From: Desulfotalea psychrophila LSv54
GTDB lineage: Bacteria; Desulfobacterota; Desulfobulbia; Desulfobulbales; Desulfocapsaceae
Assembly: GCF_000025945.1 (NCBI RefSeq)
Contig: NC_006138.1
Coordinates: forward strand, 2,310,001-2,342,000
Length of the DNA: 32,000 nucleotides
Direction: 5' to 3'
A program made the position numbers and the translations under genes. Below the pieces are notes generated by a model, which saw only the letters and a program-made list of their open reading frames with translations, had not been told where the DNA came from and searched no databases. Positions 2,118 through 28,512 of this stretch are shown here, in pieces (the first letter of the stretch is position 1; every line of letters begins with the position of its first letter).

Positions 2118-2151
2118 ATTTCTTAAAACTAGTCGTTGTCACCACATTCAA

Positions 2152-2865: not shown

Positions 2866-2904
2866 TACGTATAACAAGTTGTTGCAGACATAAAACTTAT
2901 ATGC

Positions 2905-2937
2905 GAAGTAGCTGAACAACAGATTGGCATCACGACC
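2905..2937 (+). repeat. Isolated IS1-family IRR-type end directly downstream of the HNH gene
   Basis: GCTGAACAACAGATTGGCATCACGACC matches the IRR-type consensus. The same HNH-3'-end plus IRR junction recurs at 28025-28203. Confidence 0.65.
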
Positions 2938-4618: not shown

Positions 4619-4636
4619 ACAAAAAAGTTTTTTAGC

Positions 4637-6889: not shown

Positions 6890-7085
6890 TTTTTCTTAGT
6901 CTCTCCTTCTGAGGGATTAAGTGGTCAATGATTGATCTCAATGCAGTTTACGATTATATAGAAGTAGAGGATGATGAGTAATCGCCTAACGGGGATAGGT
7001 ATGGATATTCCAAGGCCGTTCTACTTGCTGATCACTGCTTATGCAGTTATTATAGTCAATATTATGAACAAATTTTGAGGGATTT

Positions 7086-7259
7086 ATGATTAATAAAAAA
7101 ATAGAAATATACGGAGTCAAAGCCGTTGTACGACCCAAGATCAAGGCACTGAAAAGCCTTAATTTATCAGGGGGTGGGGGTAAACAAATCGTCAAATCAG
7201 AGACGAAATTAGTTTTAAGAACACACAAAAAAACTTTCAAAAAACTGGCTGATATGTAA
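7086..7259 (+). CDS. Small putative antitoxin (57 aa) translationally coupled to doc
   Basis: ATG at 7086; the stop TAA overlaps the doc ATG (TAATG). MINKKIEIYGVKAVVRPKIKALKSLNLSGGGGKQIVKSETKLVLRTHKKTFKKLADM. It is below the 60-aa track cutoff. A paralogous decayed copy lies at 14394-14568. Confidence 0.5.
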   Translation: MINKKIEIYGVKAVVRPKIKALKSLNLSGGGGKQIVKSETKLVLRTHKKTFKKLADM

Positions 7260-7660
7260 TGAATATAATTAGATTTCCTTTTGAAAGGGTCATAGAAATA
7301 AACAACTACATATTAGAGCATGAGCCAGGCATGAAAGGCTCTATTGACATCCCTAAACTTCAAGGCGCTTTGGCTCGTATTGACAATGCAATTGTCTACT
7401 CTGGTCTCGATGATGTCTTTGAAATAGCAGCAACATATACTGCATGTGTAGCTGTTGCCCACGCCCTCCCTGATGCCAACAAGCGTACAGGCTTAGCCGT
7501 TGCCTTAGAATACTAATCGCTCAACGATTTTGAGCTCACAGCAGATAACGAATTGCTTGCCGATGCAGTGAGAGATTTAGTCATCAAAAAAATTAGTGCA
7601 GATGATTTTGCTGATTTACTCTATGCACAGCACATAAAAGAAAATCCAACCTCAATATAA
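7259..7660 (+). pseudogene. doc: Doc (death-on-curing, Fic-fold) toxin interrupted by an in-frame TAA at 7514-7516
   Basis: Doc signature AHALPDANKRTGLAVALEY, then TAA, then the same frame continues SLNDFELTADNELLADAVRDLV..ENPTSI to a TAA at 7658-7660. Total 133 codons, the normal Doc length. Confidence 0.8.
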
Positions 7661-7669
7661 CATTCAAAT

Positions 7670-7789
7670 CTACTGCTCGTTTTTTCGAAGCTTTATGAGT
7701 TTCTTTCTCAGGGCATAAACAGATTCAAGCCGTTCATACTCAGCCTTAACCCCATCTTTTTTCAAAGCCTTTTTTTTGAATTTTTTCAT
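7670..7789 (-). pseudogene. Possible N-terminal remnant of an XRE/HigA-type antitoxin (39 aa)
   Basis: MKKFKKKALKKDGVKAEYERLESVYALRKKLIKLRKNEQ resembles the pre-HTH leader of HTH antitoxins, but it stops before any HTH. Confidence 0.25.
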
Positions 7790-7944
7790 AAAATTTTTTA
7801 TTTATTCTAGGGTTTTCACAAAAAATAAAGGGTAATAATCTCTCTTCCCATGCTAAAAGTAAACACGGGATAGGGGGAAGTCTACCTATCCACAAAGCAC
7901 TCCGTTCCAGAAAATTACATAAAGCCAGCGGGAGTGTTCAAGGG

Positions 7945-8742
7945 TCACCCCTCAAGACCTTCCATGATAGCCTGAGCACGAGCATTCCCTTGTTGGGCGC
8001 TCTTATCAAGCCAGAAAAATGTCTTATTCAGATCTTTTACAGTCCCCTGGCCCTTATAATACATTAATCCTAGCCGATATTGAGCGACAGCATCCCCTAG
8101 TAGAGCACTCTTTTCAAACCAGCTGAATGCTTTCTTCAAGTCTTTCGCAGTCCCTTGCCCCTTATAATACATGTAACCTAAATTATACTGAGCATTACTA
8201 TTTTCTTGTAGAGCACTCTTTTCAAGCCAAACAAGAGATTGCTTTAAGTTTTTCGGGGTACCTTTACCAGTATAGTGCATTACTCCTAGTTGAAACTGAG
8301 ATAAAGCCTGCCCCTGCAGAGCACTCCTTTCAAACCAGATAAATGCTTCCTTCAAGTCTTTCGCAGTACCCTCGCCAGTGTAGTACATTAATCCTAACCG
8401 CATTTGAGCTAAAGCAGCTCCCTGCAGGGCACTCCTTTCAAACCAGGCAAATGCTTCCTTCAAGTTTTTCGTAGTTCCCTTTCCATTATAATACATATCT
8501 CCCATATTGTATTGAGCTGTGGAATATCCCTGCTGAGCGCTCTTTTCAAACCAGATAAATGCTTCCTTCAAGTCTTTCGACACACCCTCACCAGTGTAGT
8601 ACATTAATCCTAACCGAGATTGAGCTATGGCGTTTCCCTGTTGAGCCTTTTCCATTATTTCGCTTCCATGGCAAAATGTTGCAAAAAAAAGTAACGTCCA
8701 AACAGTAATAAGAATTTTATATTTCATCCTAAAGCCTTTCAT
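7945..8742 (-). CDS. Secreted Sel1-like repeat (SLR/TPR-like) protein
   Basis: N-terminal signal peptide (KILITVWTLLFFATFCHG), then seven tandem ~36-aa units of the form AQxxLGxMYYxGxGxxKDLKEAFxWFEKSA. The DNA is visibly periodic at ~108 nt. Confidence 0.9.
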   Translation of the reverse strand: MKGFRMKYKILITVWTLLFFATFCHGSEIMEKAQQGNAIAQSRLGLMYYTGEGVSKDLKEAFIWFEKSAQQGYSTAQYNMGDMYYNGKGTTKNLKEAFAWFERSALQGAALAQMRLGLMYYTGEGTAKDLKEAFIWFERSALQGQALSQFQLGVMHYTGKGTPKNLKQSLVWLEKSALQENSNAQYNLGYMYYKGQGTAKDLKKAFSWFEKSALLGDAVAQYRLGLMYYKGQGTVKDLNKTFFWLDKSAQQGNARAQAIMEGLEG

Positions 8743-8751
8743 TAAGTAATT

Positions 8752-9156
8752 GGTTATGATACCAATCTGTTATTTAGTAAAATTTTCACTTTATTAAAGT
8801 ACCAATATCATGCAACTTAGCGCTTTTTGAAAATCCGATTATTTTGCGTTTAAGACGCTTATAGCGTGGCGCCCATGTGTACCACAGGTACCCTTAAGAA
8901 CTCTTGCAGTATCACTAAGCAGCCATCATTGGCAGGAGCTGTATCTTTCGTTGCGAATCGGCTTCACAGGCGTAGTCTATCTGGAAGGTTCGCTTGCAAT
9001 CTGAACAACGAAATCTTTGATTTCCATTACTGCCCTTGCCGTGCCGCCTTACCTTATCAATACCACCGCAAAAACGGCAGGAACTTTTATTGTAACCATA
9101 TCAGAACCTTAAAAAAGTACACTATACCATCACTTCAACGTTTTGGCATCACGACC
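8752..9156 (-). mobile_element. Decayed IS1-family element (longest copy): IRL, frameshifted insA-like zinc-finger ORF, insB 3' end, IRR. Most of insB is deleted.
   Basis: The minus strand starts GGGTCGTGATGCCAAAACGTTGAAGTGATGG and ends ..CTAAATAACAGATTGGTATCATAACC. Translation gives SCRFCGGIDKVRRHGKGSNGNQRFRCSDCKRTFQ (compare IS1 InsA CPSC..[24 protein letters not shown], from memory). Near the other end it gives GFSKSAKLHDIG (compare IS1 InsB SFSKSVELHDKVIG). The ends resemble IS1 IRs GGTGATGCTGCCAACTTACTGATTTAGTG and AATAAGTTGGAGTCATTACC, from memory. Confidence 0.75.
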
Positions 9157-9277
9157 CGTTTGCCAGGCCTCACCTTCTGGGTACAAAATATACTTTCTTT
9201 AGCTGCCTTAAATAGATAATATTAGAGAGTGATCTTGGGAAATTTGAATTTTATATAAAACCTTTATCGTACTGAGA

Positions 9278-10402
9278 GTGTTCATGAAAACATTCATCTG
9301 GGACAAAACATTTACAACAGGAATTAGCAAGATTGATGAACAACACCATCATATTGTCGAAGTTATAAATAAATTCGTCTTTGCCTTTAGCGAAAACACC
9401 ATAGATAAGGACTTCATCTTGCACGTCTCCAAAGAACTTATGGACTATGCGCAAAATCATTTTAAAACAGAAGAAAAGATCATGCTGGCCGAGAAGTTAG
9501 ATCCACTTTTCATTTCTCAACATATAGACACACACAATGCTTTTAGCCAACAAATAAAAATTTTTACCACCAATCCTGATTTTACAAACCATAATTTTTT
9601 TCGTCAAATACTAGCTTTTCTCATCCATTGGCTGGATGACCATATACTCAATATTGATCAAAGCATGGCCAGGCAGATAACCGCCATAAAAAACGGTATA
9701 TCTCCAGCACTCGCCTATCGACAGGAGCAAGAGCAGAACACACGGCACAACGAACCACTTCTGCTGGCACTCAACCAACTCTTTGAAACCGTCTCCCTGC
9801 GCAACAACGAACTCAGCCAACTGAACCGAAATCTGGAACAGCAGGTACAGGAGCGAACGACAGAACTGCGAAAGGCCAACAGAGACCTGGAAAAAATATC
9901 CCAAACCGATCCCCTCACGGAACTTGCCAATAGACGTTATGCCATGGATCAAATACACCTGCTCTGGGACAAGTCCAAAATCGCCTCCCACCCTCTCTGT
10001 TGTTTTATAATAGATGTGGATTGCTTTAAGGAGGTAAATGACACCTATGGCCACGATGCAGGCGATCTTGTCCTCAAAAATATTGCCAAGATACTGGTTG
10101 ACTCGGTCCGGGCCAGAGATATTGTCTGCCGACTTGGCGGGGATGAATTTTTTATCATCTGTCCCAGGACACCTCTTAAGGAGGGGATGGAAATTGCCAG
10201 GAGAATCAGGAAAAATGTATCTCAGACAAAAACAGTCTTTGGCAACAATTATTGGCAGGGCTCCGTCAGCATCGGGGTAGCCTGTAATAACGAAGAAATC
10301 AACAAGGTCAGCGATCTGCTTAAGGCAGCAGATGAAGGTGCTTATATGGCAAAAAACGATGGTAGAAACTGCGTCCGCTCAAAAATGATAAAAATACGAT
10401 GA
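9278..10402 (+). CDS. Hemerythrin-like domain / coiled coil / GGDEF diguanylate cyclase
   Basis: N-terminal bacteriohemerythrin pattern (WDKTFTTGISKIDEQHHHIVEVINKF, HFKTEEKIM, HWLDDHILNID). A coiled-coil linker follows. GGDEF domain with RLGGDEFFII and DAGD. An alternative ATG start lies at 9284. Confidence 0.9.
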   Translation: MFMKTFIWDKTFTTGISKIDEQHHHIVEVINKFVFAFSENTIDKDFILHVSKELMDYAQNHFKTEEKIMLAEKLDPLFISQHIDTHNAFSQQIKIFTTNPDFTNHNFFRQILAFLIHWLDDHILNIDQSMARQITAIKNGISPALAYRQEQEQNTRHNEPLLLALNQLFETVSLRNNELSQLNRNLEQQVQERTTELRKANRDLEKISQTDPLTELANRRYAMDQIHLLWDKSKIASHPLCCFIIDVDCFKEVNDTYGHDAGDLVLKNIAKILVDSVRARDIVCRLGGDEFFIICPRTPLKEGMEIARRIRKNVSQTKTVFGNNYWQGSVSIGVACNNEEINKVSDLLKAADEGAYMAKNDGRNCVRSKMIKIR

Positions 10403-10487
10403 ACCCTGCTAAAAAGCTCGCCATATTAGCTCGAATTGGCTATCAAATAGGCAGATCGATAAGTAGCAGAATATGCATCCGGCTCGT

Positions 10488-10647
10488 GGTTGTGACGCAA
10501 TTTGTTATTTAGCAAACTGCTCGTTTTATATGTGCGATAACGTGCAGTTCGGTGCTTTTTGAAAATCCGATTGTTTTGCAATTGAGCCGTTTTATAGCCT
10601 TGTTCGCAAATTCAGATTATGCCGTTCAATGCGTTGCCATAGCTTCC
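10488..10647 (-). mobile_element. IS1-family deletion derivative (MITE-like), copy F, degenerate
   Basis: It starts GGTTGTGACGCAATTTGTTATTTAGC (inverted IRR type). Internally, GCTTTTTGAAAATCCGATTGTTTTGC is the reverse complement of 23545-23570. The right end GTTCAATGCGTTGCCATAGC is a degraded IRL type. Confidence 0.65.
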
Positions 10648-10752
10648 TCACAAGATGCTTTTCCCCAGGCAACTCAGCATAGCTCCCATGCGTACCATAG
10701 CCACTGTTGGATATTCCTGTTACCAACACGACCACACTACACCTACAACTGG

Positions 10753-11973
10753 TTATAGTTGTTCGTTTTCCCCAGATACATCCTCCTTCTCACCCGCCTC
10801 GTGCATTGCCTCAATAGCTCTCTCCACACTTTTGCGGACAGGGTCCACCGTCAGATAGGCATAGTGTGCCGTGGCCTGCTCTGACTTATGTCCCAGGGAA
10901 GCACCAATTATCTTTGTACTCGATCCTGATATTGCCTGCCAACTCCCCAATGTCCTGCGGATATCATGAAAACGATAACTTGTTGGTAATTCGGCATCTG
11001 CTAAGAATTTTTTCCATAGTCGCCGGGGTTCATTTATATGTCCTGTCTTACTTTTATGAGAGATAAAAACAAAGTCACCACCATACCTCTCCTTTCTCTT
11101 CGCAAGAATAGTGATAGCCTGACTGGCCAGAGGGATAACCATCGGCTCTGCATTTTTACTCTTATCAGCGGGTATAATCCATAACTGAGTTTTCAGGTCA
11201 ATTTCAGACCAGCGCATAGATCGAATATTTGCTTGACGAGCACCAGTATAAAGAGAGAGCAGGAGGTAATCTCGTAGGAGCTCATCTGTTGCTTCATGGT
11301 CAAGGCGGCTGAAGAATTGCTTTAAATGGTCCGAACCTAAAAACTCCGTTCGTTTTTTTTCCTTATACCGTTGCACCTTGCTGCATGGATTATCGATATT
11401 TGCAGCAGCCTTTCCAAAAATGGAGGAGAGTGTAACAAAAGCTCTATGTGCCATAGCGGTTGACAGACAGTCATTTCCTCGCTGTTTCTTCTGTTTAAGA
11501 AGAGCATTTCTCCAGGTCAGAATCACATCGGGAGTAATTTCACTAAGCTTTTTTTTCCCTAACCGTCGTTTTATATAAAGCTCATAGCGTCTCACCTCTT
11601 CAGGCCATCTCTTGATATTCAGCTTTGCATGGGTATTAAGCCAAATGTCAAAAACATCGTCGAGTGACTGCTCGGCCCGTTCCTGCTTTTTTCTCTCCTG
11701 TACATCAATACCTTTGGCAATATCCGACACTCGGGCAACCACAATGTCTCTGGCGTCGTTGATGGAAAGTTCAGGAAATTCACCCAAGTTTTCTTGCACC
11801 TCTTTTTTCTTGGAAGTGTCCCAGATACGAGCCCTCAATATCTTGCGGCCGTTTGCCTTCACTCTCAACATCAAACCCTTCATACCTGTGTCGAAAAAAT
11901 GAATATCCTTGCCCGTGGTATTCTGTATTTTTACCAATCTCGTCTTAGTAAAGTTAAATTTATTATCACTCAT
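10753..11973 (-). CDS. int: Tyrosine recombinase, P4-type genomic-island integrase
   Basis: 406 aa. The N-terminal arm-type region (LMLRVKANGRKILRARIW) reads like DUF4102. Catalytic residues: TGARQANI (R), HDIRRT (HxxR), GHKSEQATAHYAY (H..Y). Confidence 0.9.
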   Translation of the reverse strand: MSDNKFNFTKTRLVKIQNTTGKDIHFFDTGMKGLMLRVKANGRKILRARIWDTSKKKEVQENLGEFPELSINDARDIVVARVSDIAKGIDVQERKKQERAEQSLDDVFDIWLNTHAKLNIKRWPEEVRRYELYIKRRLGKKKLSEITPDVILTWRNALLKQKKQRGNDCLSTAMAHRAFVTLSSIFGKAAANIDNPCSKVQRYKEKKRTEFLGSDHLKQFFSRLDHEATDELLRDYLLLSLYTGARQANIRSMRWSEIDLKTQLWIIPADKSKNAEPMVIPLASQAITILAKRKERYGGDFVFISHKSKTGHINEPRRLWKKFLADAELPTSYRFHDIRRTLGSWQAISGSSTKIIGASLGHKSEQATAHYAYLTVDPVRKSVERAIEAMHEAGEKEDVSGENEQL

Positions 11974-18234: not shown

Positions 18235-19339
18235 ATGTCTATTTCAAAAGAATTATTTAAAATCGCTAATAATTTAGGGGCATATAGTGATTATAAGACT
18301 CCACAGATTCAAAACTTAATTGACTCAGCTACCGCTGTTGGTAAGTCATGGAGTGGGTCTTGGTTGGGGTATCATTCCAGAGTATATTATACTGCCTTTG
18401 AAACGCCACCTCCTGGGGCAGTATTTAGTGCAGAATGGGGATTAGAAAATAACTTTTCTGGGGGGTCAAGAGGTGCTTGGCTTGAGTATAGTTTTGATGA
18501 CGTGGTGAGTTATATTAATCAACAAGCTGGTGCCCCCAATACTGATAAATTATCCAGTGATGGAGACCAAGCAACGTTACTGTATGAAGATTCAAAATCT
18601 GATTTACTAGTCAATAATTTACTCGAATTTGCCAGGAGAAAAAGATAGTTTCCTCCAAGGGCTTGTTGATAAAATAGAATCTGAAAAAATACTTTCCGAA
18701 GATGATTTTCTGAAATATCAACGGCCAACAGGCCAAATAATGTCAAGAGATTCTTTAGCCGTACATTGCGGGTTAGTTGTTCCTCCTCATATTGCTGTAC
18801 TATCTAAAGCATACGCAACTATGCAACCCTTTCAATCATGTTCGAACCTTAAAAAAACAACATTAAAAATAGCTAATCACATGCGTAACTTAGAAAAAAA
18901 ATCAGTGGTGGAAGATCGCATTGGAACAAATATTTTTATTGGGCATGGTCGCTCTCATTATTGGAGAGAACTCAAAGATTTTGTAAGTGAGAGGCTCCAT
19001 TTACCATGGGATGAGTTTAATAGAGTCCCTGTTGCAGGAGTCACAAATATAACTCGACTTGCACAAATGCTTGATCAATCTTGTATTGCATTTTTGGTTA
19101 TGACTGCTGAAGATGAGCAACAAGATGGTAATATGCACGCTCGAATGAATGTAGTTCATGAAGTAGGATTGTTCCAAGGTCGGCTTGGCTTTGAACGAGC
19201 CATCGTCGTATTAGAAGAAGGTTGTGAGGAATTTTCAAATATTCAAGGTTTAGGTCAAATAAGGTTTCCCAAGGGAAATATTTCGGCAATTTTTGATGAA
19301 ATACGACAAATTTTAGAACGAGAGAAAATCGTTGATTAA
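18235..19339 (+). CDS. TIR-like (Cap12/PycTIR-type, Pfam PF10137 as recalled) effector with an unknown N-terminal domain. It is split into two ORFs by a 1-nt shift in an A5 run.
   Basis: ORFs 18235-18648 and 18629-19339 overlap by 20 nt. Removing one A from AAAAA at 18639-18643 fuses them (..EFARRK-DSFLQGL..). The C-terminus IFIGHGRSHYWRELKDF..AFLVMTAEDE..HARMNVVHEVGLFQGRLGFERAIVVLEEGCEEFSNIQGLGQIRF matches the vFIvHG..AivLlTpDD..RaRQNVifElGyf.GkLGr.rV..L pattern. Confidence 0.7.
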
Positions 19340-19604
19340 GTGCTTCATAGTAAAACTAATTCGAACGTCACAAAGCTGCTCCGCTCATTTCTTATTACGC
19401 AACTTTGTGACGCCGATTATTTAAAAGTTAAACAATCGTATTGCTCCTCTTCTGGAAATGCCGACAACCCTCTGCTATTTTTTGTCCCTGCCCCTTTCTG
19501 GCCCAAAAGCATTGCTAGAGAGCCAACCTTGGTGTTACAATGAAACAGCAAAATGCTGTAAAGGCAGTGAAAATGGCATAATTTGAAGTCAAAGAAGAAA
19601 AAAT

Positions 19605-20085
19605 ATGGCTGACTACACAAAACTGGATTATTTGAAAAAAAACCTCGATTCTTACCGCCCTTTGCCTGCCGAGGTAGTCTCAAACCTTCATGAAGATCTT
19701 GTCCTGCGCTGGACCTGGTGCCATAGAGGGTAACAGCCTGACCCTGAAAGAGACTAAAGTTGTCTTGGAAGGTATTGCTGTTGGTGGCAAGACCATACGT
19801 GAACATCTTGAGGCGATCAACCACCGGGAGGCCATCTACTTTGTCGAAGAGTTGGTGGAGAAAGGGCAGATCCTCTCAGAGTGCCAGATCAAATCCATCC
19901 ACCAGTTGGTATTGAAAAATATTGATGATAAGCATGCTGGAACCTATAGAAAAAACAATGTTATTATCTCCAGTACAGATCATCATCTACCAGATGCAAT
20001 ACACTTCTCGCCCTTCTACCCCCTTCTCCGTTTACCTGGTGGCCCTATAGGTGGCAGAGTGTTTACAAAAGTCAAACCTCTTTGA
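19605..20085 (+). pseudogene. Fic-domain protein, frameshifted near codon 38 and truncated before the HPFxxGNGR motif
   Basis: MADYTKLDYLKKNLDSYRPLPAEVVSNLHEDLVLRWTW, then a stop. A second frame continues AIEGNSLTLKETKVVLEGIAVGGKTIREHLEAINHREA..HAGTYRKNNVIIS. No Fic active-site motif follows. Confidence 0.75.
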
Positions 20086-20206
20086 GTTGATGCCGCTTTT
20101 ATGATATCATTCTTAGTAAATGCTAGTCTGTGTTTATCTGGAATGATACCAGAAAACTGGATAATAACTTGTTATGTTTTTAGGTTGATTCAACTAGGAG
20201 TCTATA

Positions 20207-20632
20207 ATGAGCAATATTTATCAAAGAGATCTAATAATTTCTCTTCTTGCTAAGAATTACGATACCCATATGAATATCATCTGGGCAACGATCGGTTTAT
20301 TACTTGGTGCAATTGGATGGATTATTACGTCTCGTGAGGCTAGAAGCTATCTGACTAGTCCAAAGTTAAATAAAATAGTTAGTCTAGTTGTGATCATTGC
20401 GATGGCAATCATGCATTACTATCTCCTTTGGCAAACGATGGAGTATTCGATAGATTTGAAATCAGAATTGATAAAGGTTGTAGGTGAAAATGTAGACGTG
20501 ATTAATACAAGTGAGTTTATTTATCTAATCTCATATTACATGTTTTCCGCGAGAGCATTTGTCACATTTATATTATTTGGATTTCTTAGCTTTTTAGTCA
20601 TCAAAGGTGAAAAACACATAACAAGCAGATAA
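20207..20632 (+). CDS. Hypothetical integral membrane protein (about 4 TM)
   Basis: AGGAG RBS. Hydrophobic segments: IIWATIGLLLGAIGWIIT, IVSLVVIIAMAIMHYYLLW, FVTFILFGFLSFLVI. Confidence 0.6.
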   Translation: MSNIYQRDLIISLLAKNYDTHMNIIWATIGLLLGAIGWIITSREARSYLTSPKLNKIVSLVVIIAMAIMHYYLLWQTMEYSIDLKSELIKVVGENVDVINTSEFIYLISYYMFSARAFVTFILFGFLSFLVIKGEKHITSR

Positions 20633-21460: not shown

Positions 21461-21593
21461 CTGCAACAAACGCCTAAGTCTCCTACACATATCCAAAAAA
21501 CATTGCAAATCAGGCAATCTTGTTGTTAGCATGCAGTCTACTTAAAATGCCGTAGAGGCAGGAAAACTGCCATAACCTAAAGTCAAAGTAGAA
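21461..21593 (+). repeat. Third copy of the Fic-gene 5' leader, without the gene
   Basis: CTGCAACAAACGCCTAAG..ATCCAAAAAACATTGCAA..CCGTAGAGGCAGGAAAACTGCCATAACCTAAAGTCAAAG aligns with 27693-27828 and, more loosely, with 19500-19604. Homology stops where the ATG would be. Confidence 0.8.
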
Positions 21594-21692
21594 GGCAGTC
21601 CGTAAGATCACATCCAACAAAAGGTAAAAGCTGACGGCTGATGGCTTCCCTTCCAACCGACGCCACAAACTGCGCAAAAAGCCAAGCCACTG

Positions 21693-21916
21693 CCCCCCCC
21701 ACCTTTCACCAGCCCCCTCCCATGTTGGGGGCAATGCCCATTCTACCAAGCTGAGCAGCGGAGAAGTTGGCGGAAATAGAGTTTGAGCTATTTGAGCTAG
21801 CCTTCTTAAACTCTCGTGGGGCTTGGCAACTGGGCCGGGGCGGCATGGGGTGCAAAGGGGGGAACGCTTCCCCCTTTGGCCAGCTGTCGTATCCGTTCCA
21901 TATAGTCACTACCGCG
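21693..21916. repeat. Composite GC-rich repeat (family 2), copy a
   Basis: CCCCCCCCACCTTTCACCAGCCCCCTCCCATGTTGGGGGCAATGCCCATTCTACCAAGCTGAGCAGCGGAGAAGTTGGCGGAAATAGAGTTTGAGCTATTTGAGCTAGCCTTCTTAAACTCTCGTGGGGCTTGG plus CAACTGGGCCGGGGCGGCATGGGGTGCAAAGGGGGGAACGCTTCCCCCTTTGGCCAG recur at 24614-25028. The tail CTGTCGTATCCGTTCCATATAGTCACTACCGCG recurs at 23161-23193. Confidence 0.85.
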
Positions 21917-22086
21917 CGGCTGACCTCTGAACGGGCCTGCTGACCACGACCGATGGAAAAGAATGCTCCGTTAATTCGTAGAGTGCGGGACCTGTAACTG
22001 GCTCGCAGATACAGATCGATAATTGCTTGAGCAAAAGTGAAGGATTCTTCTTCCCAGCTCCAGTGATTGAGGAGATCACGGTCCAT
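21900..22086 (-). pseudogene. N-terminal fragment of a phage-type DNA-binding/replication-associated protein, truncated by repeat family 2
   Basis: GGAGGG RBS then MDRDLLNHWSWEEESFTFAQAIIDLYLRASYRSRTLRINGAFFSIGRGQQARSEVS. This fits the common prophage pattern F..qAw.dLll.A....v.inG..i.i.rGQ...S. The rest of the annotated ORF reads into the repeat. Confidence 0.4.
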
Positions 22087-22394
22087 TTTTACCACCCTCC
22101 TCTTTTGTGAATAAGGGTGCGGACATCTTTAAGACAGAGACGAATGGTGCTGTTAAGAGCCTCACCATAGAAGGGATGTTCGTTGTCGCCAATTACAAAA
22201 AGGGCATACCATGTGGATTGGCGTACCGGTAACCAGAACCGGCGGGTCAGAGACCCTCCATACAGCCCGCCTAAAATTTGGAGCAAGGCTATGAATTTGG
22301 ATACAATTATGCCAATAACAGGGCCCAAAAAAAACACCACGCAAAAGGTGGCGGTGCATTTTCTATTGCCTTTCAGTAGCCCACAGGATACACT

Positions 22395-23505: not shown

Positions 23506-23634
23506 CAAATCGTAAGGATTTTGAACGAGGTTGAAGCGCTTAATCACAAAACAATCGGATTTTCAAAAAGCACCGAGCTGCACGTTATCGCACGGAGTGA
23601 GAATTTCACTAAACAACAAATTGGCATCACAACC
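23506..23634 (+). mobile_element. IS1-family remnant (insB 3' end plus IRR), copy G, abutting the cat start
   Basis: It reads ..LNHKTIGFSKSTELHVIARSENFTKQQIGITT through ..CACTAAACAACAAATTGGCATCACAACC. There is no IRL. 12 nt separate the IRR end from the cat GTG. Confidence 0.7.
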
Positions 23635-23645
23635 GGAGATTTCCT

Positions 23646-24281
23646 GTGAAGAAAAAAATAGATATTAGCAATTATAAACGAAAAGGAATGTTTGAAGCTT
23701 TTAAAGATCGTGATATGCCATATCTATCAACAACCAGCCATGTGGACATAAAAAATCTAAAGCCATTTATAGATAATCACAAATATGGATTTTTTATATC
23801 TATTAGTTATTTAATATCAAAAGCAGTAAACCTTATCCCAGAATTGAGGCATAGGATAATTGATGGTGAATTGTACGAGTATGACAGGGTGGACCCTGGC
23901 TATACAGTCTTACTAGAAGATGAAACGTTCTCATTTTGCGACTCTTGTTACTTCGAAGATTTTCAAAAATACAGTGAATATTCCAGCACTAAGATAAATG
24001 AGGTTAAAGCAAAACCTGACAATGGTGTTGGCGAGAAACACCATATGTTTTTTATTACGAACATACCTTGGTTCAGTTTCACTTCGATTGTTCACCCGCA
24101 TGATAAAGTGTATGCATCGATTCCGATAATTACTATCGGGAAATATTTTAAACAGGGAGATCAGCTGTTGCTACCTATTGGGATTCAAGTTCATCATGGA
24201 GTAGTAGATGGGATTCATCTAGGTAAATTTTATACCCACTTATCAAATTTTTGTGCCGATCCAGCTTTATGGTTGGTCTAA
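23646..24281 (+). CDS. cat: Chloramphenicol O-acetyltransferase, classical type A CAT family
   Basis: 211 aa. FFITNIPWFSFTSIVHP..IPIITIGKYFKQGDQLLLPIGIQVHHGVVDGIHLGKFY aligns with CAT [47 protein letters not shown], including the catalytic His. GTG start with GGAG 8 nt upstream. Confidence 0.9.
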   Translation: MKKKIDISNYKRKGMFEAFKDRDMPYLSTTSHVDIKNLKPFIDNHKYGFFISISYLISKAVNLIPELRHRIIDGELYEYDRVDPGYTVLLEDETFSFCDSCYFEDFQKYSEYSSTKINEVKAKPDNGVGEKHHMFFITNIPWFSFTSIVHPHDKVYASIPIITIGKYFKQGDQLLLPIGIQVHHGVVDGIHLGKFYTHLSNFCADPALWLV

Positions 24282-24576
24282 AAGGGGGTCGTGGTACAAT
24301 CTGCTGTTGAGGGAGCTTCCCTCTTGATGATATTGAATTTACTTTATTATATAGACCTGAGTTACTGGAATAATCCTCATTGTTATACAACTGAGCCTTT
24401 CTATATTTTAGCATCACCACCCATTTCGGAGACCAGGATAACTGCCTGAAACCCTGGAACAGTATCTTCATCACCCCACCCCACAACCAGCAACGATCTC
24501 CCCCGCCACTCCTAAGCAGACATTGACTCCCGAACCACACACCTTAACAATAGAAAAGCCACGGCTTGCGAGGCCT

Positions 24577-24611
24577 AGCTGATAGCTGACAGCTGACAGC
24601 TGACGGCTGAC
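24577..24611. repeat. Heptanucleotide tandem repeat (AGCTGAC) x5
   Basis: AGCTGAT AGCTGAC AGCTGAC AGCTGAC GGCTGAC. The equivalent position of repeat copy a (21629-21642) has 2 units. Confidence 0.9.
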
Positions 24612-24613
24612 AG

Positions 24614-25028
24614 CCCCCCCACCTTTGACCAGCCCCCTCTCATGTTGGGGCAATGCCCATTCTACCAAGCTGAGTAGCGGAGAAGTTGGCAGAAATAGAG
24701 TTTGAGCTATTTGAGCTAGCCTTCTTAAACTCTCATGGGGCTTGGAAGAGCAGTCCAACCCCTCTGTCATGCACCATCATTTCAACGCGTTGGCGTTACG
24801 ACCGTATTAGGCTGGAGGCGGTAGGCTCTCACTCTTGCTCTCCCCATCTCAAGTTGCCCGAACGAAGTGAAGCTGACGCGTGAGCAGGTCAGGACGAACT
24901 GCTAGCTACGAGGGCAGGAGCCCGTTCGTAGCGCTAGCGGAAGCTGAAACGAGAGTGAGGATTAGCAACTGAGCCGGGGCGGCATGGGGTGCAAAGGGGG
25001 GAATGCTGCTGTTTCCCCCTTTGGCCAG
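24614..25028. repeat. Composite GC-rich repeat (family 2), copy b, carrying a 220-nt insertion (24746-24965)
   Basis: 24614-24745 matches 21693-21826 and 24966-25028 matches 21827-21883. The intervening 220 nt are absent from copy a. Confidence 0.85.
24771..24803 (-). repeat. Isolated IS1-family IRL-type end inside the 220-nt insertion
   Basis: GCACCATCATTTCAACGCGTTGGCGTTACGACC aligns with 9124-9156 (ATACCATCACTTCAACGTTTTGGCATCACGACC). Confidence 0.6.
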
Positions 25029-25084
25029 TGTGGCTGGCAAGCCACGATCCGGTGACTACCATCAAACCCGGGAAACTCGATCGA

Positions 25085-25500
25085 GGATCGTGATGCCAAT
25101 TTGTTATTTTGATAAAATATCGCTCTGTGCGATGTAACTCAACCCCTTTTGAGTAAAAGAGATGAATAATAATATTCACCTTGAGGAGTTTGCTGAACAG
25201 TCCATGGTCCATCTCCCCACAATGTGCTTTTTCACAGGTAACTCAATATGATAGGTTTTCAAGTTATCAGTGCAGAAAAATCTTAGGCGTTGTCAATAAT
25301 AACCTGAAAGCTTCGCTATCCTGCCAAAAGCAGGTTTGATGATCCCCAGGGTGATTCCCACGCATACCACAGCCATCTCTGGTTTTTCTTATCCTTAAAC
25401 CACGGTGACCACTCCGCAAACAAGCTCTATGTGTTTGATTTTGTCTAAAAACCTAGTCACTTGTCTTGGTTTGATTTTTTTAAAGTGGGTAAACATCCCC
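25085..25500 (-). mobile_element. Decayed IS1-family remnant retaining much of an insB-like gene (multiple frameshifts) plus IRR. IRL and insA are missing.
   Basis: It starts GGATCGTGATGCCAATTTGTTATTTTG (inverted IRR). Minus-strand frames give FYSKGVELH (IS1 FSKSVELH), VGRWTMDCSANSSR (IERHNLNLRQHLAR), CFWQDSEAF (DGWPLYESRL) and KPRQVTRFLD (KSRQRWLFYAYD). The comparisons are from memory and the upper boundary is approximate. Confidence 0.55.
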
Positions 25501-25545: not shown

Positions 25546-25953
25546 TCATTTTTCTTCAACAGGAAATTTTGCCCTGGACCATTCCCGCCATCCACCTTTC
25601 AGAGCATGGACTGAAGAGAAACCGTCTGCAGTAAGCTTACGCGCCAAACTGGCGCTGGTGGATTCGTTGGGTCATGCGCAATAAAGGACGATCTTTTTAT
25701 CCTTGGCAAATTTTGATTTCCAGGTATCCAATTTGCCTGGATTGGCCCGATGGGCCCCTTTTATTTTAAATTCCGATGAGGTCCAATCCCTTCCCTGACG
25801 GGCATCGAGAATGACCACATCGCCGTTATCCATCCAGCCCTTCACTATCTCCTTACTCACAACAGACACCGGGGCTGCCATTGCTGGTACAGCCAATGCA
25901 GCGATAAAGGTCAAAGCAATCAACCAGCCAAAGCAAAAGTTTAATTTTTTCAT
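25546..25953 (-). CDS. Periplasmic single-domain rhodanese with an in-frame TGA (25672-25674) at the catalytic Cys position: candidate selenoprotein (135 aa, U94)
   Basis: Signal peptide ending ALAVPAMAAP. Beyond the TGA the frame stays open for 41 codons: PNESTSASLARKLTADGFSSVHALKGGWREWSRAKFPVEEK. From the TGA, U-PNESTSASLARKLTADGFSSVHALKGGWREW aligns without gaps to E. coli GlpE [32 protein letters not shown] (G18, aromatic 19, V22, GG27-28, W32). Confidence 0.7.
25641..25655 (-). promoter_or_regulatory. Candidate bacterial SECIS hairpin
   Basis: On the mRNA, 16 nt after the UGA: GCGCCA-GUU-UGGCGC, or a 5-bp stem with loop AGUUU. The G/U-containing apical loop lies about 22 nt from the UGA, within the usual window for bacterial SECIS elements. 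Confidence 0.45.
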
Positions 25954-27119
25954 AATGAACTCCTTTTTTCGTGATTGTGTGGCATTTTATTGGATATTAA
26001 ACTCAGGATAAGTCCTGTAAGCAGGATACATCCCATATAAAACAGCGTCAGCAGGGGCGCTTCCCCTGAAAATAGAATTGCCCCGCCCCCTGCGATGAGA
26101 AGGCTTGCTAGCAGAAATTTTTTCAGGGAGTAGCCCTGTCGGGCATACCCCAGGAGCCAGAGCAAAAAAGCTGCCCGGATCCAGAGTTCGAGTTTTTCAC
26201 TGCCGGCCATGCCCAGGGCCATCATCAGGCCCACAGCAAGGCCCAGGAAGATGGGCACCACAAAGGGCTTTGCGGTCCATGGGGGAAGTTTTCCCCGCTC
26301 TGTCAGTTGTTTTACCGTATAGTCACAACCCAGGAAAAGCGCATTTACGGCTGCCAAAGTGCCTGATATGACAGCAATACCCATGATGATCCTGCCGGTT
26401 TGCCCCAAAACGATCCTGGCGACTTTCATGTTGGGAATTCCCGAGTCAGCCAATTTTTCTAAAGGAAGATGGGAAATGGAGACCAGCCCCCAGAGGAAAA
26501 ATATAAGTCCTGCCACGGCAATGGCGGCCAGGCACGGCATCTTACCGCTATCTTTGGAATTTACAGCTCCTGCCAGGTCAAACCCAACCCAGAGCAGCAA
26601 GGGAAGGCTTAAGATCCCAATGCCTGGAACTTCCACCATCTGGGCCGCCGGCCCAGTTACACCCGGCCCGGTGCTGCTAAGGCCTGACACTATGAGTATG
26701 CCAAGGGCGGAAAGAACCGTTCCGATAAAAAGCACCTGGGCCCTGAGGATGACAATAGGTCCGGCCAATTGTATCCCAAGGACAAGGCCTAACAGTAAAA
26801 AGGCAAACCCGAAGTTGGGAAACCAATAGACGAAAACCTCATTAAAAACAAAGCCCGATGAAACCAAAATACCTGTGGAAAGAAAAACGGCGGCGGCAAA
26901 TTTAACAGCCAGGGTAAACGGCGTCGCCACGGTGAAGTTTTCTATGCTTTGGGCGATAACAAAAAACAGGGCCATGGCCGCGGGTATAAGCCATAGGCCC
27001 AGGCGACCGGTATACCCCATGAAATTTCCCAGGCCCACAAAGGTGTCGGGTGAAACCATAACGCCCAAGCCAATGGATGTGGCTGTCAATCTAAAGCGAT
27101 GGCACTTATCCATTTTCAA
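25950..27119 (-). CDS. Polytopic membrane transporter (APC-superfamily-like permease), translationally coupled to the rhodanese
   Basis: 389 aa with about 11 hydrophobic segments. Its stop overlaps the rhodanese start (ATGA at 25950-25953). Confidence 0.65.
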   Translation of the reverse strand: MKMDKCHRFRLTATSIGLGVMVSPDTFVGLGNFMGYTGRLGLWLIPAAMALFFVIAQSIENFTVATPFTLAVKFAAAVFLSTGILVSSGFVFNEVFVYWFPNFGFAFLLLGLVLGIQLAGPIVILRAQVLFIGTVLSALGILIVSGLSSTGPGVTGPAAQMVEVPGIGILSLPLLLWVGFDLAGAVNSKDSGKMPCLAAIAVAGLIFFLWGLVSISHLPLEKLADSGIPNMKVARIVLGQTGRIIMGIAVISGTLAAVNALFLGCDYTVKQLTERGKLPPWTAKPFVVPIFLGLAVGLMMALGMAGSEKLELWIRAAFLLWLLGYARQGYSLKKFLLASLLIAGGGAILFSGEAPLLTLFYMGCILLTGLILSLISNKMPHNHEKRSSL

Positions 27120-27692: not shown

Positions 27693-28018
27693 CCACAACA
27701 AACACCTAAGCCCTCTCTGTATCCAAAAAACATTGCAACTCAGACAACCTTATTGTTACCATACAATCTACCTAAAACACCGTAGAGGCAGTAAAACTGT
27801 CATAATTTAAAGTCAAAGAAGAAAAGATATGGCTGACTATACAAAACTGGATTATTTGAAAAAAACCCTCGATTCCCATCGCCCGCTGCCTGCCGAGGTA
27901 GTCTCAAACCTGCATGAAGATCTTGTTCTGCGCTGGGCCTGGCGCCATTGAGGGAAATACCCTGACCCTAAAAGAGACTAAGGTTGCCCCGGAAGGTATT
28001 ACTGTTGGCGGCAAGACC
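27693..28018 (+). pseudogene. Second Fic 5' leader plus N-terminal fragment (ATG at 27829), with the same frameshift region, cut off at about codon 63
   Basis: About 85-90% identical to 19500-19795. MADYTKLDYLKKTLDSHRPLPAEVVSNLHEDLVLRWAWRH-stop. Homology ends at ..GGCGGCAAGACCA. Confidence 0.8.
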
Positions 28019-28024
28019 AGGTGA

Positions 28025-28132
28025 GCACTTTGCCCCAATTGTCACTGCGAACTGCACTATGGTACGGGCAAAAAGGAACTGGCAAAGAATCTATGGGCGA
28101 AGATTGCCAGGCGTCAGGTCTCCGGTGCGTAA
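28025..28132 (+). pseudogene. 3'-terminal fragment of an HNH gene paralogous to 2152-2865, fused to the Fic fragment
   Basis: AGCACTTTGCCCCAATTGTCACTGCGAACTGCACTATGGTACGGGCAAAAAGGAACTGGCA..GGTGCGTAA aligns with 2757-2865 (ALCPNCHSELHYGMGKKELAE..). Confidence 0.8.
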
Positions 28133-28203
28133 TACGTATAACAAATAGTTGCAGGTTTGAAACTTATCTGCGAAGCGGATGGACAACAGGCTGGAATCAC
28201 TCC
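28133..28203 (+). repeat. Degenerate copy of the post-HNH spacer plus IS1 IRR-type end
   Basis: TACGTATAACAAATAGTTGCAGGTTTGAAACTTATCTGCGAAGCGGATGGACAACAGGCTGGAATCACTCC aligns with 2866-2937. Confidence 0.6.
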
Positions 28204-28512
28204 ACTTTTACAAGGCTCCCCTTTGTATAAGGAGATAAATTGATTTATGAAAACGTGAGGGTTTTGGATCATATAGTGATATCAAGTTAGAAACCATGTA
28301 CCATGGATGAAAAAATTGTTTTCAAATTGTGTTTACCTGGAATGATATCAGGAAACCGGATAATAACTTGTTAGCTTCCCCGGTAAATTAAGAGCACGAA
28401 AAACACTATAATAGTCCTTATTTCATTTTTATATTGTCTGGTTGCTTTGGGTAAAAGTCCCGTAATATAATATAGATATAAAATTGCGGACCTGACCCCT
28501 TTTTGAGGTATT

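What the first reader, a model, noticed from the sequence alone, without database searches (positions are those of the whole stretch)
25546..25953. Rhodanese with TGA exactly at the catalytic cysteine position: probable selenocysteine-containing, exported sulfurtransferase
**Reading frame.** The annotated ORF stops at a TGA (25672-25674), but the frame continues for 41 more codons. Those codons encode the missing half of the rhodanese fold.

**Alignment.** The alignment to GlpE is gap-free, with the TGA aligned to the active-site Cys: U-PNESTS.. versus C-YHGNSS.., and conserved G, V, GG and W downstream.

**SECIS.** A GC hairpin with a G/U loop (GCGCCA-GUU-UGGCGC) lies 16 nt after the UGA.

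**Context.**
- The protein has a signal peptide.
- It is translationally coupled (ATGA) to an upstream permease, which hints at a periplasmic sulfur/selenium-handling pair.
- Rhodanese-type selenoproteins have been predicted computationally. An exported one coupled to a transporter is worth a look.
Basis: partly seen in the sequence, partly recalled or inferred. Interest (0 to 1): 0.66.

Follow-up and report, generated by a model that had tools for sequence, protein, structure and literature searches.

The report
Known exported selenocysteine rhodanese (LYCAU family)
The in-frame TGA is a real selenocysteine codon in a small exported rhodanese, but this selenoprotein family was predicted in 2005 and already has a curated NCBI model; the only new lead is its conserved pairing with an uncharacterised membrane permease.

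Summary
The minus-strand ORF 25953..25672 stops at TGA after ...IVLYCA. The frame then runs 41 more codons, and the Pfam rhodanese domain spans the TGA.

In 83 related loci, almost all Desulfobacterota, the same codon is TGA. The 41-42 codons after it are under stronger purifying selection than the codons before it. A 6-bp hairpin with a G-U loop, 22 nt after the UGA, is conserved with compensatory changes and suppressed synonymous variation. It meets all four published bacterial SECIS constraints. Cysteine-containing homologs exist, and the distant ones lack the hairpin.

The family is already known. The protein scores 167 bits against a cutoff of 115 on NCBIfam NF041203 'rhodanese_LYCAU, rhodanese-related (seleno)protein'. 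This CxU form was first predicted by Zhang & Gladyshev in 2005.

One correction: an invariant Cys lies two residues before the Sec. Profile alignments and an AlphaFold model put that Cys, not the Sec, at the canonical catalytic site.

Extra result: the upstream APC-type permease is the neighbour in 72 of 84 loci, overlaps by ATGA in 17 of 68, and is fused in frame in two. Function remains untested. Sec machinery could not be checked within 32 kb.

The parts
25546..25953 (-). Full coding sequence of the rhodanese-related selenoprotein: 135 residues including Sec94, with the final TGA stop at 25548..25546.
   Evidence: Translation. Pfam PF00581 E=3e-13 across the TGA. NCBIfam NF041203 rhodanese_LYCAU at 167.2 bits against a cutoff of 115.
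25672..25674 (-). In-frame UGA read as selenocysteine (residue 94).
   Evidence: The same codon is TGA in 86 of 89 motif-bearing loci. The downstream 39 codons show pairwise differences of 0.232/0.187/0.533 at codon positions 1/2/3.
25678..25680 (-). Codon of Cys92, the invariant Cys of the CxU (LYCAU) motif. It is the probable canonical rhodanese catalytic Cys.
   Evidence: TGC or TGT in all loci with the motif. Aligned to the catalytic Cys of 6mxv and GlpE by HMMER and hhalign. In the AF2 model the strand ends just before it.
25641..25655 (-). SECIS hairpin: 5' arm 25655..25650 (GCGCCA), loop 25649..25647 (GUU), 3' arm 25646..25641 (UGGCGC). The loop starts 22 nt after the UGA.
   Evidence: 96.9% of cells are paired in 80 sequences, reached by 0 of 500 shuffles. 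Pair 30/42 is UA:67, CG:9, UG:3, CA:1. Loop base G35 is invariant. Free energy is -8.7 kcal/mol. It meets the bSECIS constraints quoted from PMC13188914. Third-position entropy is 0.09-0.63 bit here against 1.5-2.0 bit elsewhere.
25876..25953 (-). Predicted Sec-type signal peptide, residues 1-26: MKKLNFCFGWLIALTFIAALAVPAMA, with cleavage after AMA.
   Evidence: Sequence features and a hydropathy peak at residues 11-25. All orthologs carry a comparable N-terminal hydrophobic segment. No SignalP run was possible.
25573..25851 (-). Rhodanese domain (residues 35-127).
   Evidence: Pfam PF00581. The AF2 model of Cys homolog P0003 has pLDDT 89.7. Foldseek top hits are the rhodanese structures 6mxv, 3tp9 and 2hhg.
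25960..25965 (-). Shine-Dalgarno-like AAGGAG, 6 nt before the rhodanese ATG and inside the end of the permease gene.
   Evidence: Read directly from the sequence.
25950..27119 (-). Partner gene: a 389-aa polytopic membrane protein, a divergent APC-superfamily permease. Its TGA stop overlaps the rhodanese ATG (ATGA).
   Evidence: ORF list. Same-strand upstream neighbour in 72 of 84 loci. ATGA overlap in 17 of 68 loci, and in-frame fusion in L016 and L036. The profile of 51 orthologs hits xCT 7ccs_B at E=4.7e-7 and LAT2 at E=7e-4. Pfam AA_permease_2 is found in 6 of 51 members.

Best explanation
**What it is.** Window 25953..25546 (minus strand) encodes one 135-residue protein. It is a member of the known selenoprotein family NF041203 ('rhodanese_LYCAU', the CxU form of rhodanese-related sulfurtransferase).

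**Recoding (shown by comparison).** The UGA at 25674..25672 is recoded as selenocysteine. The signal is a minimal bacterial SECIS hairpin embedded in the next codons: a 6-bp stem and a G-U-N loop, 22 nt downstream of the UGA.

**Export (inferred).** The protein carries a Sec-type signal peptide and is exported to the periplasm, where it folds as a single rhodanese domain.

**Active site (inferred).** The active-site loop carries an invariant Cys92 and Sec94 two residues apart. Most likely Cys92 occupies the canonical persulfide-carrying position. Sec94 sits in the cradle loop as a more reactive partner. It would either take over or resolve the sulfane sulfur (or selenium), or form a Cys-S-Se-Sec selenenylsulfide.

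**Partner (association shown, joint function inferred).** The gene is co-transcribed and translationally coupled with an uncharacterised APC-superfamily permease. The two form an autonomous two-gene cassette in Desulfobacterota. I infer that the rhodanese processes or hands over a small sulfur- or selenium-containing substrate on the periplasmic face of the permease. The substrate is unknown.
For: **Family membership.**
- NF041203 at 167.2 bits against a cutoff of 115, E=1.2e-49.

**Translation through the UGA.**
- TGA is at the same codon in 7 of 7 metagenome loci and 72 of 76 species-representative loci.
- In 83 loci the ORF continues for 41 codons (70 loci), 42 (12) or 44 (1). The true stops are TAA 38, TAG 34 and TGA 11.
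- Pairwise differences at codon positions 1/2/3 are 0.232/0.187/0.533 downstream, against 0.332/0.288/0.61 upstream.
- Cys homologs carry YCACPNE.

**SECIS.**
- RNAalifold independently predicts the same hairpin, and compensatory UA-to-CG changes occur.
- Synonymous variation is suppressed: Ala +7 is GCC in 78 of 79 sequences, whereas Ala +23 uses all four codons.
- All four bSECIS constraints are met.
- The distant Cys forms L089 and L090 lack the hairpin.

**TGA is otherwise a stop here.** Five of 13 domain-supported genes in the window end in TGA, and none has an internal TGA.

**Fold.** AF2 pLDDT is 89.7, with rhodanese structures as top Foldseek hits.

**Cys92 at the canonical site.** HMMER against 6mxv, hhalign against GlpE, and the AF2 strand 86-90 / loop 91-96 / helix 97-108 layout. 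L050 keeps the Cys but has Leu at the Sec position.

**Permease link.**
- Neighbour in 72 of 84 loci. Most of the misses lack upstream DNA.
- Gaps are mostly 50 nt or less, with two in-frame fusions.
- No other conserved neighbour exists.

**Precedent.** A periplasmic selenoprotein with a cleaved signal peptide has been shown experimentally: MccSep of Geobacter (PMC13510729).
Against: - No Sec machinery (selA, selB, selC, selD) can be shown for this genome. None lies in the window, no tRNA is present, and the source contig is not on record.
- Sec insertion, export, sulfurtransferase activity and any interaction with the permease are all untested. The family is 'predicted' in the literature.
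- The assignment of the catalytic residue is ambiguous. A gap-free alignment puts the Sec on the catalytic Cys, with canonical spacing to the conserved Gly and Gly-Gly and a canonical T-S after the loop.
- The window's own permease has no Pfam or NCBIfam hit. The APC assignment rests on a family profile.
- About nine loci with enough upstream DNA lack the permease.
Confidence: 0.9

Rival explanations
1. The TGA is a genuine stop. The gene is a truncated 93-residue rhodanese fragment or pseudogene, and the downstream open frame is chance.
For: - Gene callers annotate about 35 orthologs as 88-96-residue proteins ending in LYCA.
- A 41-codon open stretch is not rare by itself.
- One ortholog (L016) has TAA at the position.
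Against: - The downstream frame is conserved in 83 loci, with third-position-dominated variation and a fixed length of 41-42 codons.
- The rhodanese domain is complete only when read through the TGA.
- The SECIS hairpin is conserved and covaries.
- Full-length Cys homologs exist.
Confidence: 0.02
2. The UGA is read as a standard amino acid (Trp, Gly or Cys) through a reassigned genetic code or leaky read-through, not as selenocysteine.
For: - Two database homologs (P0002, P0006) are written with W at the position.
- Sec machinery was not observed for this genome.
Against: - TGA serves as the normal stop of 5 of 13 domain-supported genes in the window. It also ends the permease gene and the rhodanese gene itself. 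Trp is TGG.
- The position aligns with Cys in the non-TGA homologs, which is the hallmark Sec/Cys pair.
- The hairpin fits the SelB-dependent bSECIS model.
- The carriers are Desulfobacterota, described as the bacteria most enriched in selenoproteins (PMC13188914). They include the Olavius Delta 1 symbiont (L013), where Sec-rhodaneses were reported (PMC1976440).
Confidence: 0.04
3. Sec94 itself is the catalytic nucleophile at the canonical rhodanese Cys position. Cys92 is then an auxiliary or resolving residue at the end of the preceding strand.
For: - The gap-free phmmer alignment to both domains of 6mxv puts U on the catalytic Cys.
- The distances from U to the conserved Gly (17) and Gly-Gly (26) equal those from Cys65 of GlpE.
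- U+5 and U+6 are T-S, as in the canonical CxxxxR/T-S loop.
Against: - Profile HMM alignment and hhalign prefer Cys92 on the catalytic Cys, with a two-residue insertion.
- In the AF2 model the strand ends at Tyr, and the six-residue loop starts at the Cys equivalent to Cys92.
- L050 keeps Cys92 but has Leu at the Sec position.
Confidence: 0.4
4. The cassette works on selenium rather than sulfur. The periplasmic Sec-rhodanese would capture or reduce selenite-derived selenium and feed it to the permease, giving a dedicated selenium uptake route.
For: - The cassette is confined to heavily Sec-using Desulfobacterota.
- The review states that no specific high-affinity selenium transporter is known in prokaryotes (PMC13188914).
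- In Geobacter, a rhodanese-like lipoprotein ExtH is linked to selenite uptake by the porin ExtI (a reference cited in PMC13510729).
Against: - There is no direct evidence.
- No sel genes or other selenium-metabolism genes are conserved next to the cassette.
- A selenium importer that itself requires selenium would be awkward.
- Rhodaneses are generally sulfur carriers.
Confidence: 0.12

Closest known systems
NCBIfam NF041203 'rhodanese_LYCAU', rhodanese-related (seleno)protein. [quoted passage not shown]
   Same: - Full-length match above the curated cutoff.
- The same LYCA-U-PNE motif, the same single Sec and the same size.
- The same taxa, including the Olavius symbionts.
   Different: Nothing at family level. 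This sequence is at most 75% identical to any database member over the first 93 residues, and 67% to the best species representative. The permease partnership and the fusions are not mentioned in the reviews I could read.
E. coli GlpE and PspE, single-domain rhodaneses (thiosulfate sulfurtransferases). PspE is periplasmic.
   Same: - Same fold and size.
- Same DxR ... C-loop ... GG-x-x-W layout.
- PspE is also exported. That statement rests on my own knowledge.
   Different: - GlpE and PspE have a single catalytic Cys in a six-residue loop.
- This protein has Cys-x-Sec and, by profile alignment, a loop two residues longer.
- The NCBIfam GlpE model scores 23.6 bits against a cutoff of 102.
Sud, the periplasmic polysulfide-sulfur transferase of Wolinella succinogenes (PDB 1qxn).
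   Same: A periplasmic single rhodanese domain that serves a membrane protein complex. It is detectable by sequence (E=1e-6 with the family profile) and by fold.
   Different: - Sud has Cys only.
- It delivers sulfur to polysulfide reductase, not to an APC-type permease.
- Its genes are arranged differently.
Periplasmic selenoprotein MccSep (ExtKL), with the rhodanese-like lipoprotein ExtH and porin ExtI, in Geobacter sulfurreducens.
   Same: - It shows that Sec-containing proteins with cleaved signal peptides work in the periplasm on polysulfide and selenite.
- It shows that a periplasmic rhodanese-like protein can be tied to chalcogen uptake (PMC13510729).
   Different: - MccSep is a multiheme cytochrome, and ExtH is not reported there as a selenoprotein.
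- The partner is an outer-membrane porin, not an inner-membrane APC permease.
APC-superfamily transporters (SLC7 xCT and LAT2, AdiC, YjeH), for the partner gene.
   Same: - The profile of 51 orthologs matches xCT (E=4.7e-7) and LAT2 (E=7e-4) over about 280-380 positions.
- A minority of members pass Pfam AA_permease_2.
   Different: - Very divergent. The window's copy hits no Pfam or NCBIfam model.
- It has a distinctive invariant GFxFNEVFxYWFPNFGF motif.
- The substrate is unknown.

Membership tests
NCBIfam NF041203 rhodanese_LYCAU (seleno)protein | Whole-protein HMM score at or above the curated cutoff (115 bits). | tested here: met
   167.2 bits, E=1.2e-49, covering profile positions 5-126 of 126, with Sec written as Cys.
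NCBIfam NF041203 rhodanese_LYCAU (seleno)protein | LYCAU motif with the U encoded by in-frame TGA (CxU). | tested here: met
   ...IVLYCA-TGA-PNE at 25689..25663. The same motif is found in 86 of 89 related loci.
Bacterial selenoprotein gene (general criteria) | Protein-level conservation continues downstream of the UGA. | tested here: met
   Differences at codon positions 1/2/3 are 0.232/0.187/0.533 over 39 downstream codons in 83 loci. ORF length after the UGA is fixed at 41-42 codons.
Bacterial selenoprotein gene (general criteria) | A bSECIS element: 3-9 nt apical loop, 4-16 bp stem, G in the first two loop positions, 16-37 nt from UGA to loop, and MFE of -7.5 kcal/mol or lower (PMC13188914, Fig. 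2). | tested here: met
   Loop GUU (3 nt), 6-bp stem, 22 nt from the UGA, -8.7 kcal/mol. The hairpin is conserved and covaries in 80 sequences.
Bacterial selenoprotein gene (general criteria) | Homologs with Cys at the Sec position. | tested here: met
   P0003/L018 (TGT), P0007, P0014/L089 and P0043/L090 carry YCACP.
Bacterial selenoprotein gene (general criteria) | The genome encodes selA, selB, selC (tRNA-Sec) and selD. | not testable with these tools
   None lies in the 32-kb window, and no tRNA is found. The source contig is not on record. Support is only indirect: the carriers are Desulfobacterota, a phylum rich in selenoproteins.
Bacterial selenoprotein gene (general criteria) | Selenium is actually incorporated at the UGA. 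| not testable with these tools
   This needs 75Se labelling or mass spectrometry. The family is listed as 'predicted'.
Rhodanese / sulfurtransferase (Pfam PF00581) | Rhodanese domain and fold. | tested here: met
   PF00581 at 50.5 bits against a cutoff of 22.2. AF2 pLDDT is 89.7. Foldseek top hits are rhodaneses, with TM-score 0.66-0.70 normalised to the query.
Rhodanese / sulfurtransferase (Pfam PF00581) | A catalytic Cys as the first residue of the active-site loop, between the central strand and a helix. | tested here: inconclusive
   A nucleophile is present, but which one occupies the site is unresolved. Cys92 is favoured by HMMER, hhalign and the AF2 secondary structure. Sec94 is favoured by the gap-free alignment.
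Exported (periplasmic) rhodaneses such as PspE and Sud | A cleavable N-terminal signal peptide. | tested here: inconclusive
   The N-terminus has a positive start, a 17-residue hydrophobic core and an AMA|AP site. A hydropathy peak is seen, and the feature is conserved in orthologs. In two species the segment links permease and rhodanese as a fusion. No signal-peptide predictor or localisation data were available.
APC transporter superfamily (partner gene) | Significant profile match to APC-fold transporters. | tested here: inconclusive
   The family profile hits xCT at E=4.7e-7 and LAT2 at E=7e-4. Six of 51 members pass AA_permease_2. The window's own copy has no Pfam, NCBIfam or PDB hit.

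The most novel reading that the evidence does not exclude
The permease plus exported CxU Sec-rhodanese pair is a self-contained chalcogen uptake or trafficking module of Desulfobacterota. The periplasmic selenoenzyme would load or convert a sulfane-sulfur or selenium species for a dedicated APC-type permease. In the most novel version it is the specific selenium importer that reviews say has not been found in prokaryotes. The gene pairing is solid: 72 of 84 loci, ATGA coupling, two in-frame fusions and no other conserved neighbour. It is not mentioned in the papers I could read. The function is pure inference.
Probability: 0.12. Interest if true: 0.6.

Novelty: already known. Interest (0 to 1): 0.22.

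Why it matters
**As a selenoprotein call.** It adds nothing new. The family was predicted in 2005, is tabulated in the 2022 and 2026 reviews, and has a curated NCBI model. NCBI uses such models to name proteins in its genome annotation.

**Practical value.**
- Standard gene callers still truncate this gene at LYCA. About 35 database entries are 88-96-residue fragments.
- The comparative data here give a clean, well-controlled example of a minimal coding-region SECIS. It shows covariation, suppression of synonymous sites, loss of the hairpin in old Cys forms and retention in recent ones.

**The one forward-looking point.** This widespread, functionally uncharacterised periplasmic selenoprotein has an obligate-looking partner, an uncurated APC-type permease. 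The pairing gives a concrete handle for genetics in cultured carriers such as Desulfosarcina alkanivorans and Desulfosediminicola ganghwensis.

Tried and rejected
- **Rfam.** A scan of the whole window at gathering thresholds found nothing.
- **tRNA.** ARAGORN found no tRNA or tRNA-Sec in the window.
- **Single-sequence folding.** Folding the 81 nt around the UGA is not exceptional (z = -0.86), so one sequence cannot validate the SECIS. Only the comparison across loci does.
- **Other selenoprotein genes in the window.** I looked for further candidates, which would have shown indirectly that the organism uses Sec. Only chance-looking TGA-bridged frames turned up, for example 19690-20253 and 21583-22095.
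- **Source contig.** Exact-protein look-up of the permease and of the 93-residue fragment found nothing on record.
- **Distant Cys homologs.** I checked whether P0014 and P0043 also sit next to the permease. The contigs are too short, and P0043 has a different upstream gene, so this is uninformative.
- **Permease alone.** The window's permease has no hit in PDB, Pfam or NCBIfam. Only the 51-sequence profile reached APC transporters.
- **Literature search for 'LYCAU'.** It returned only irrelevant substring hits.
- **UxU (double-Sec) form.** The form reported from the Olavius symbionts was not present in the 88 loci examined.
- **Promoter and terminator scan.** Nothing useful was found on the minus strand around the cassette.
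- **Catalytic residue from the AF2 model.** Only secondary structure is returned, not coordinates, so the question stays open.
Full report
**1. The observation**

On the minus strand an ATG at 25953 opens a 93-codon ORF. It ends ...KDKKIVLYCA followed by TGA at 25674..25672. The same frame stays open for 41 more codons, PNESTSASLARKLTADGFSSVHALKGGWREWSRAKFPVEEK, up to a TGA at 25548..25546.

With the TGA position written as Cys, Pfam's Rhodanese domain matches residues 35-127 (E=3e-13). The domain therefore straddles the TGA.

The stop of the upstream 389-residue membrane ORF (27119..25950) overlaps the rhodanese start as ATGA. An AAGGAG lies 6 nt before the ATG. The hairpin GCGCCA-GUU-UGGCGC lies 16 nt after the UGA, at 25655..25641.

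**2. Is the UGA translated?**

A protein search returned about 35 orthologs of 88-96 residues that all end in exactly ...LYCA. It also returned a few full-length homologs with YCA-C-PNE, and two with YCA-W-PNE.

I fetched the DNA of seven metagenomic loci and of 80 species-representative genomes. The 80 were the best of 210 confirmed hits.
- After the stragglers were resolved, it is TGA in 86 of 89 motif-bearing loci, duplicates included. Two have Cys, one has TAA (L016) and one has Leu/TTA (L050).
- In 83 loci the frame continues for 41 codons (70 loci), 42 (12) or 44 (1). It ends at TAA (38), TAG (34) or TGA (11).
- Mean pairwise differences at codon positions 1/2/3 are 0.232/0.187/0.533 in the 39 codons after the UGA. 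In the 39 codons before it they are 0.332/0.288/0.61.

This is a clear coding signature. The part after the 'stop' is the better-conserved half of the protein. A truncated gene or pseudogene is excluded.

Within the window TGA is otherwise an ordinary stop. Five of 13 domain-supported genes end in TGA, none has an internal TGA, and Trp is TGG. A reassigned code is therefore excluded too. The 'W' in two database entries is most simply a gene-caller artefact.

**3. The SECIS element**

I aligned 80 sequences covering 9 nt before the UGA to 57 nt after it. The alignment has no gaps.
- 96.9% of cells are paired, a value reached by 0 of 500 column shuffles.
- Sliding the 3' arm by 1-3 columns drops pairing to 19-53%.
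- Pair 30/42 is U-A in 67 sequences, C-G in 9, U-G in 3 and mismatched in 1. Both columns are third codon positions, of Ser and of Ala.
- Pair 33/39 has one C-G to A-U double change, in the cultured Desulfosarcina alkanivorans.
- Loop base G35 is invariant, and U36 is above 90%.

Synonymous variation is suppressed in the hairpin codons. Third-position entropy is 0.09-0.63 bit at codons +6 to +10. Ala +7 is GCC in 78 of 79 sequences. Fourfold-degenerate sites elsewhere show 1.5-2.0 bit, and Ala +23 uses GCC 33, GCA 18, GCT 18 and GCG 11.

The published consensus model of bacterial SECIS elements sets four constraints (PMC13188914): an apical loop of 3-9 nt, a stem of 4-16 bp, a G in the first two loop positions (usually followed by G or U), 16-37 nt from UGA to loop, and MFE of -7.5 kcal/mol or lower. 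The window's element has a GUU loop, a 6-bp stem, 22 nt of spacing and -8.7 kcal/mol. All four are met.

As a control, the distant Cys homologs L089 and L090 encode similar residues but have no hairpin (-1.0 and -1.9 kcal/mol). The close non-TGA variants keep it as an apparent fossil: L018 (TGT), L016 (TAA) and L050 (TTA).

**4. What it is**

The protein matches NCBIfam NF041203.1, named 'rhodanese_LYCAU', an equivalog model described as 'rhodanese-related (seleno)protein'. The score is 167.2 bits against a curated cutoff of 115 (E=1.2e-49).

The literature already covers this family.
[quoted passage not shown] - Rhodanese-related sulfurtransferases were the third most abundant selenoprotein family in the Olavius algarvensis symbionts, where a UxU variant was noted (PMC1976440). 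Two of my loci come from those symbionts (L013, L019).

The finding is therefore real, but it is an equivalog-level member of a known family.

**5. Which residue is catalytic?**

From U94 to the conserved Gly is 17 residues, and to Gly-Gly is 26, as from Cys65 of GlpE. Single-sequence phmmer aligns U to the catalytic Cys of both domains of 6mxv.

However, the family has an invariant Cys two residues earlier, with TGC or TGT in every locus. Three lines of evidence favour that Cys as the canonical one.
- The family-profile search aligns it to the catalytic Cys of 6mxv.
- hhalign against GlpE does the same, treating Ala-Sec as a two-residue insertion.
- An AlphaFold2 model of the Cys homolog P0003 (pLDDT 89.7) ends the central strand at the Tyr. 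It then has a six-residue loop, C-A-C-P-N-E, and starts the helix at the next residue.

L050 also keeps this Cys while carrying Leu at the Sec position. I could not inspect coordinates.

Either way the two chalcogen atoms sit in one active-site loop. They could form a selenenylsulfide or pass sulfane sulfur between them.

**6. Localisation**

The N-terminus has the n-, h- and c-regions of a Sec-type signal peptide (MKK, 17 hydrophobic residues, AMA|AP). It has no twin-arginine motif and no lipobox. Every ortholog has a comparable segment. I infer export; it is not shown here. Periplasmic selenoproteins with cleaved signal peptides have been demonstrated experimentally elsewhere (MccSep, PMC13510729).

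**7. The partner**

tblastn with the window's permease finds a same-strand homolog immediately upstream of the rhodanese in 72 of 84 loci. Of the 12 misses, five have too little upstream DNA (168-1416 nt). The loci that clearly lack it are L001/L002, L006, L008, L021, L024, L061 and L087; L071, with only 1.8 kb upstream, also shows none.

The spacing between the two genes is tight.
- It is -4 (ATGA) in 17 of 68 loci.
- It is 50 nt or less in most of the others.
- In L016 and L036 the two ORFs are fused in frame. The signal-peptide segment would then serve as one more membrane span.

Clustering all flanking ORFs found no other neighbour conserved in more than 13 loci. The pair is therefore an autonomous cassette in variable contexts. 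In the window it sits in an island-like region, described in section 8.

The permease itself is poorly characterised.
- The window's copy has no Pfam, NCBIfam or PDB match.
- A profile of 51 orthologs reaches xCT/SLC7A11 (E=4.7e-7) and LAT2 (E=7e-4).
- Six of 51 members pass AA_permease_2.
- Four of 51 weakly hit the YjeH model.
- Database names are 'hypothetical protein' or 'amino acid transporter'.

It is a divergent, uncurated APC-superfamily branch with an invariant GFxFNEVFxYWFPNFGF motif. Its C-terminal tail is positively charged. That fits a cytoplasmic C-terminus and a periplasmic rhodanese in the fused forms.

**8. Window context**

The rest of the window encodes restriction-modification and defence genes, an integrase, a chloramphenicol acetyltransferase and an aminoglycoside phosphotransferase. 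It contains several repeats. There are no sel genes and no tRNA. Rfam found nothing at gathering thresholds.

**9. How it most likely works**

Shown by comparison: the UGA is decoded, a SECIS hairpin is under selection, the fold is rhodanese, and the gene is tied to the permease.

Inferred:
- SelB-dependent Sec insertion.
- Sec-pathway export.
- A Cys92/Sec94 pair that carries or resolves sulfane sulfur (or selenium).
- Functional hand-over to or from the permease.

Substrate and direction are unknown. I rank sulfur trafficking (thiosulfate or polysulfide-derived sulfane sulfur, or a thiol/disulfide substrate) above selenium acquisition. I put the latter at about 0.12.

**10. Verdict**

The phenomenon is already catalogued, so interest is low. 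The conserved permease partnership and the natural fusions are a modest, testable lead on the function of a widespread uncharacterised selenoprotein.

Noticed in passing
L016:1630-3417 and L036:1564-3357: In two species (an uncultured Desulfobacterales MAG and a 'delta proteobacterium' MAG) the permease ORF runs in frame, with no stop, into the rhodanese ORF. This would give a permease-rhodanese fusion of about 590 residues, with the Sec codon still inside. L016 has TAA instead of TGA at that codon.
   Followed up: partly
L050 (Desulforhabdus MAG), L018 (Desulfatitalea MAG), L016: Three close relatives have lost the TGA: TTA/Leu with a changed loop (LKGEGTS), TGT/Cys, and TAA. All three still carry an intact SECIS hairpin. 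These look like recent conversions or errors (L050 has only about 3x coverage). The distant Cys forms L089 and L090 have no hairpin.
   Followed up: partly
L040:333-1631: The permease ortholog of an uncultured Desulfobacula MAG has a single in-frame TAG at residue 295 inside an otherwise conserved alignment. It could be a pseudogene, an assembly error or a pyrrolysine codon. Some marine Desulfobacterota decode both Sec and Pyl (PMC8318568).
   Followed up: no
window 19550-20174 and 27774-28373: Direct repeats bracket the segment that holds the CAT gene and the permease-rhodanese cassette: 246 nt at 87% identity plus 46 nt at 91%. Both copies encode the N-terminus of a similar protein (MKIL[SF]CAGPGAIEGN[ST]LTLKETKV...).
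   Followed up: no
window 21728-21868 and 24647-25007; 23587-23630 and 25090-25133: A 99-nt direct repeat (97% identity) with an adjacent 64-nt repeat (84%), and a 44-nt inverted repeat (82%) flanking the chloramphenicol acetyltransferase gene (23646-24281). The stretch 24300-25500, just downstream of the rhodanese gene, has no convincing ORF. The pattern suggests cassette-like or mobile DNA.
   Followed up: no
window 942-11973 and 18629-19339: A defence and mobility island: an NgoFVII-type restriction enzyme, an HNH endonuclease, a C-5 cytosine methylase, an Mrr-type endonuclease, a Sel1-repeat protein, a hemerythrin-GGDEF protein, a tyrosine integrase and a CAP12/Pycsar-type TIR effector.
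   Followed up: no
P0016 (database homolog, 88 residues): One truncated ortholog ends ...IVLYWA, with Trp in place of the otherwise invariant Cys at position -2. It comes from a single 1.6-kb contig, so it may be a sequencing error.
   Followed up: no
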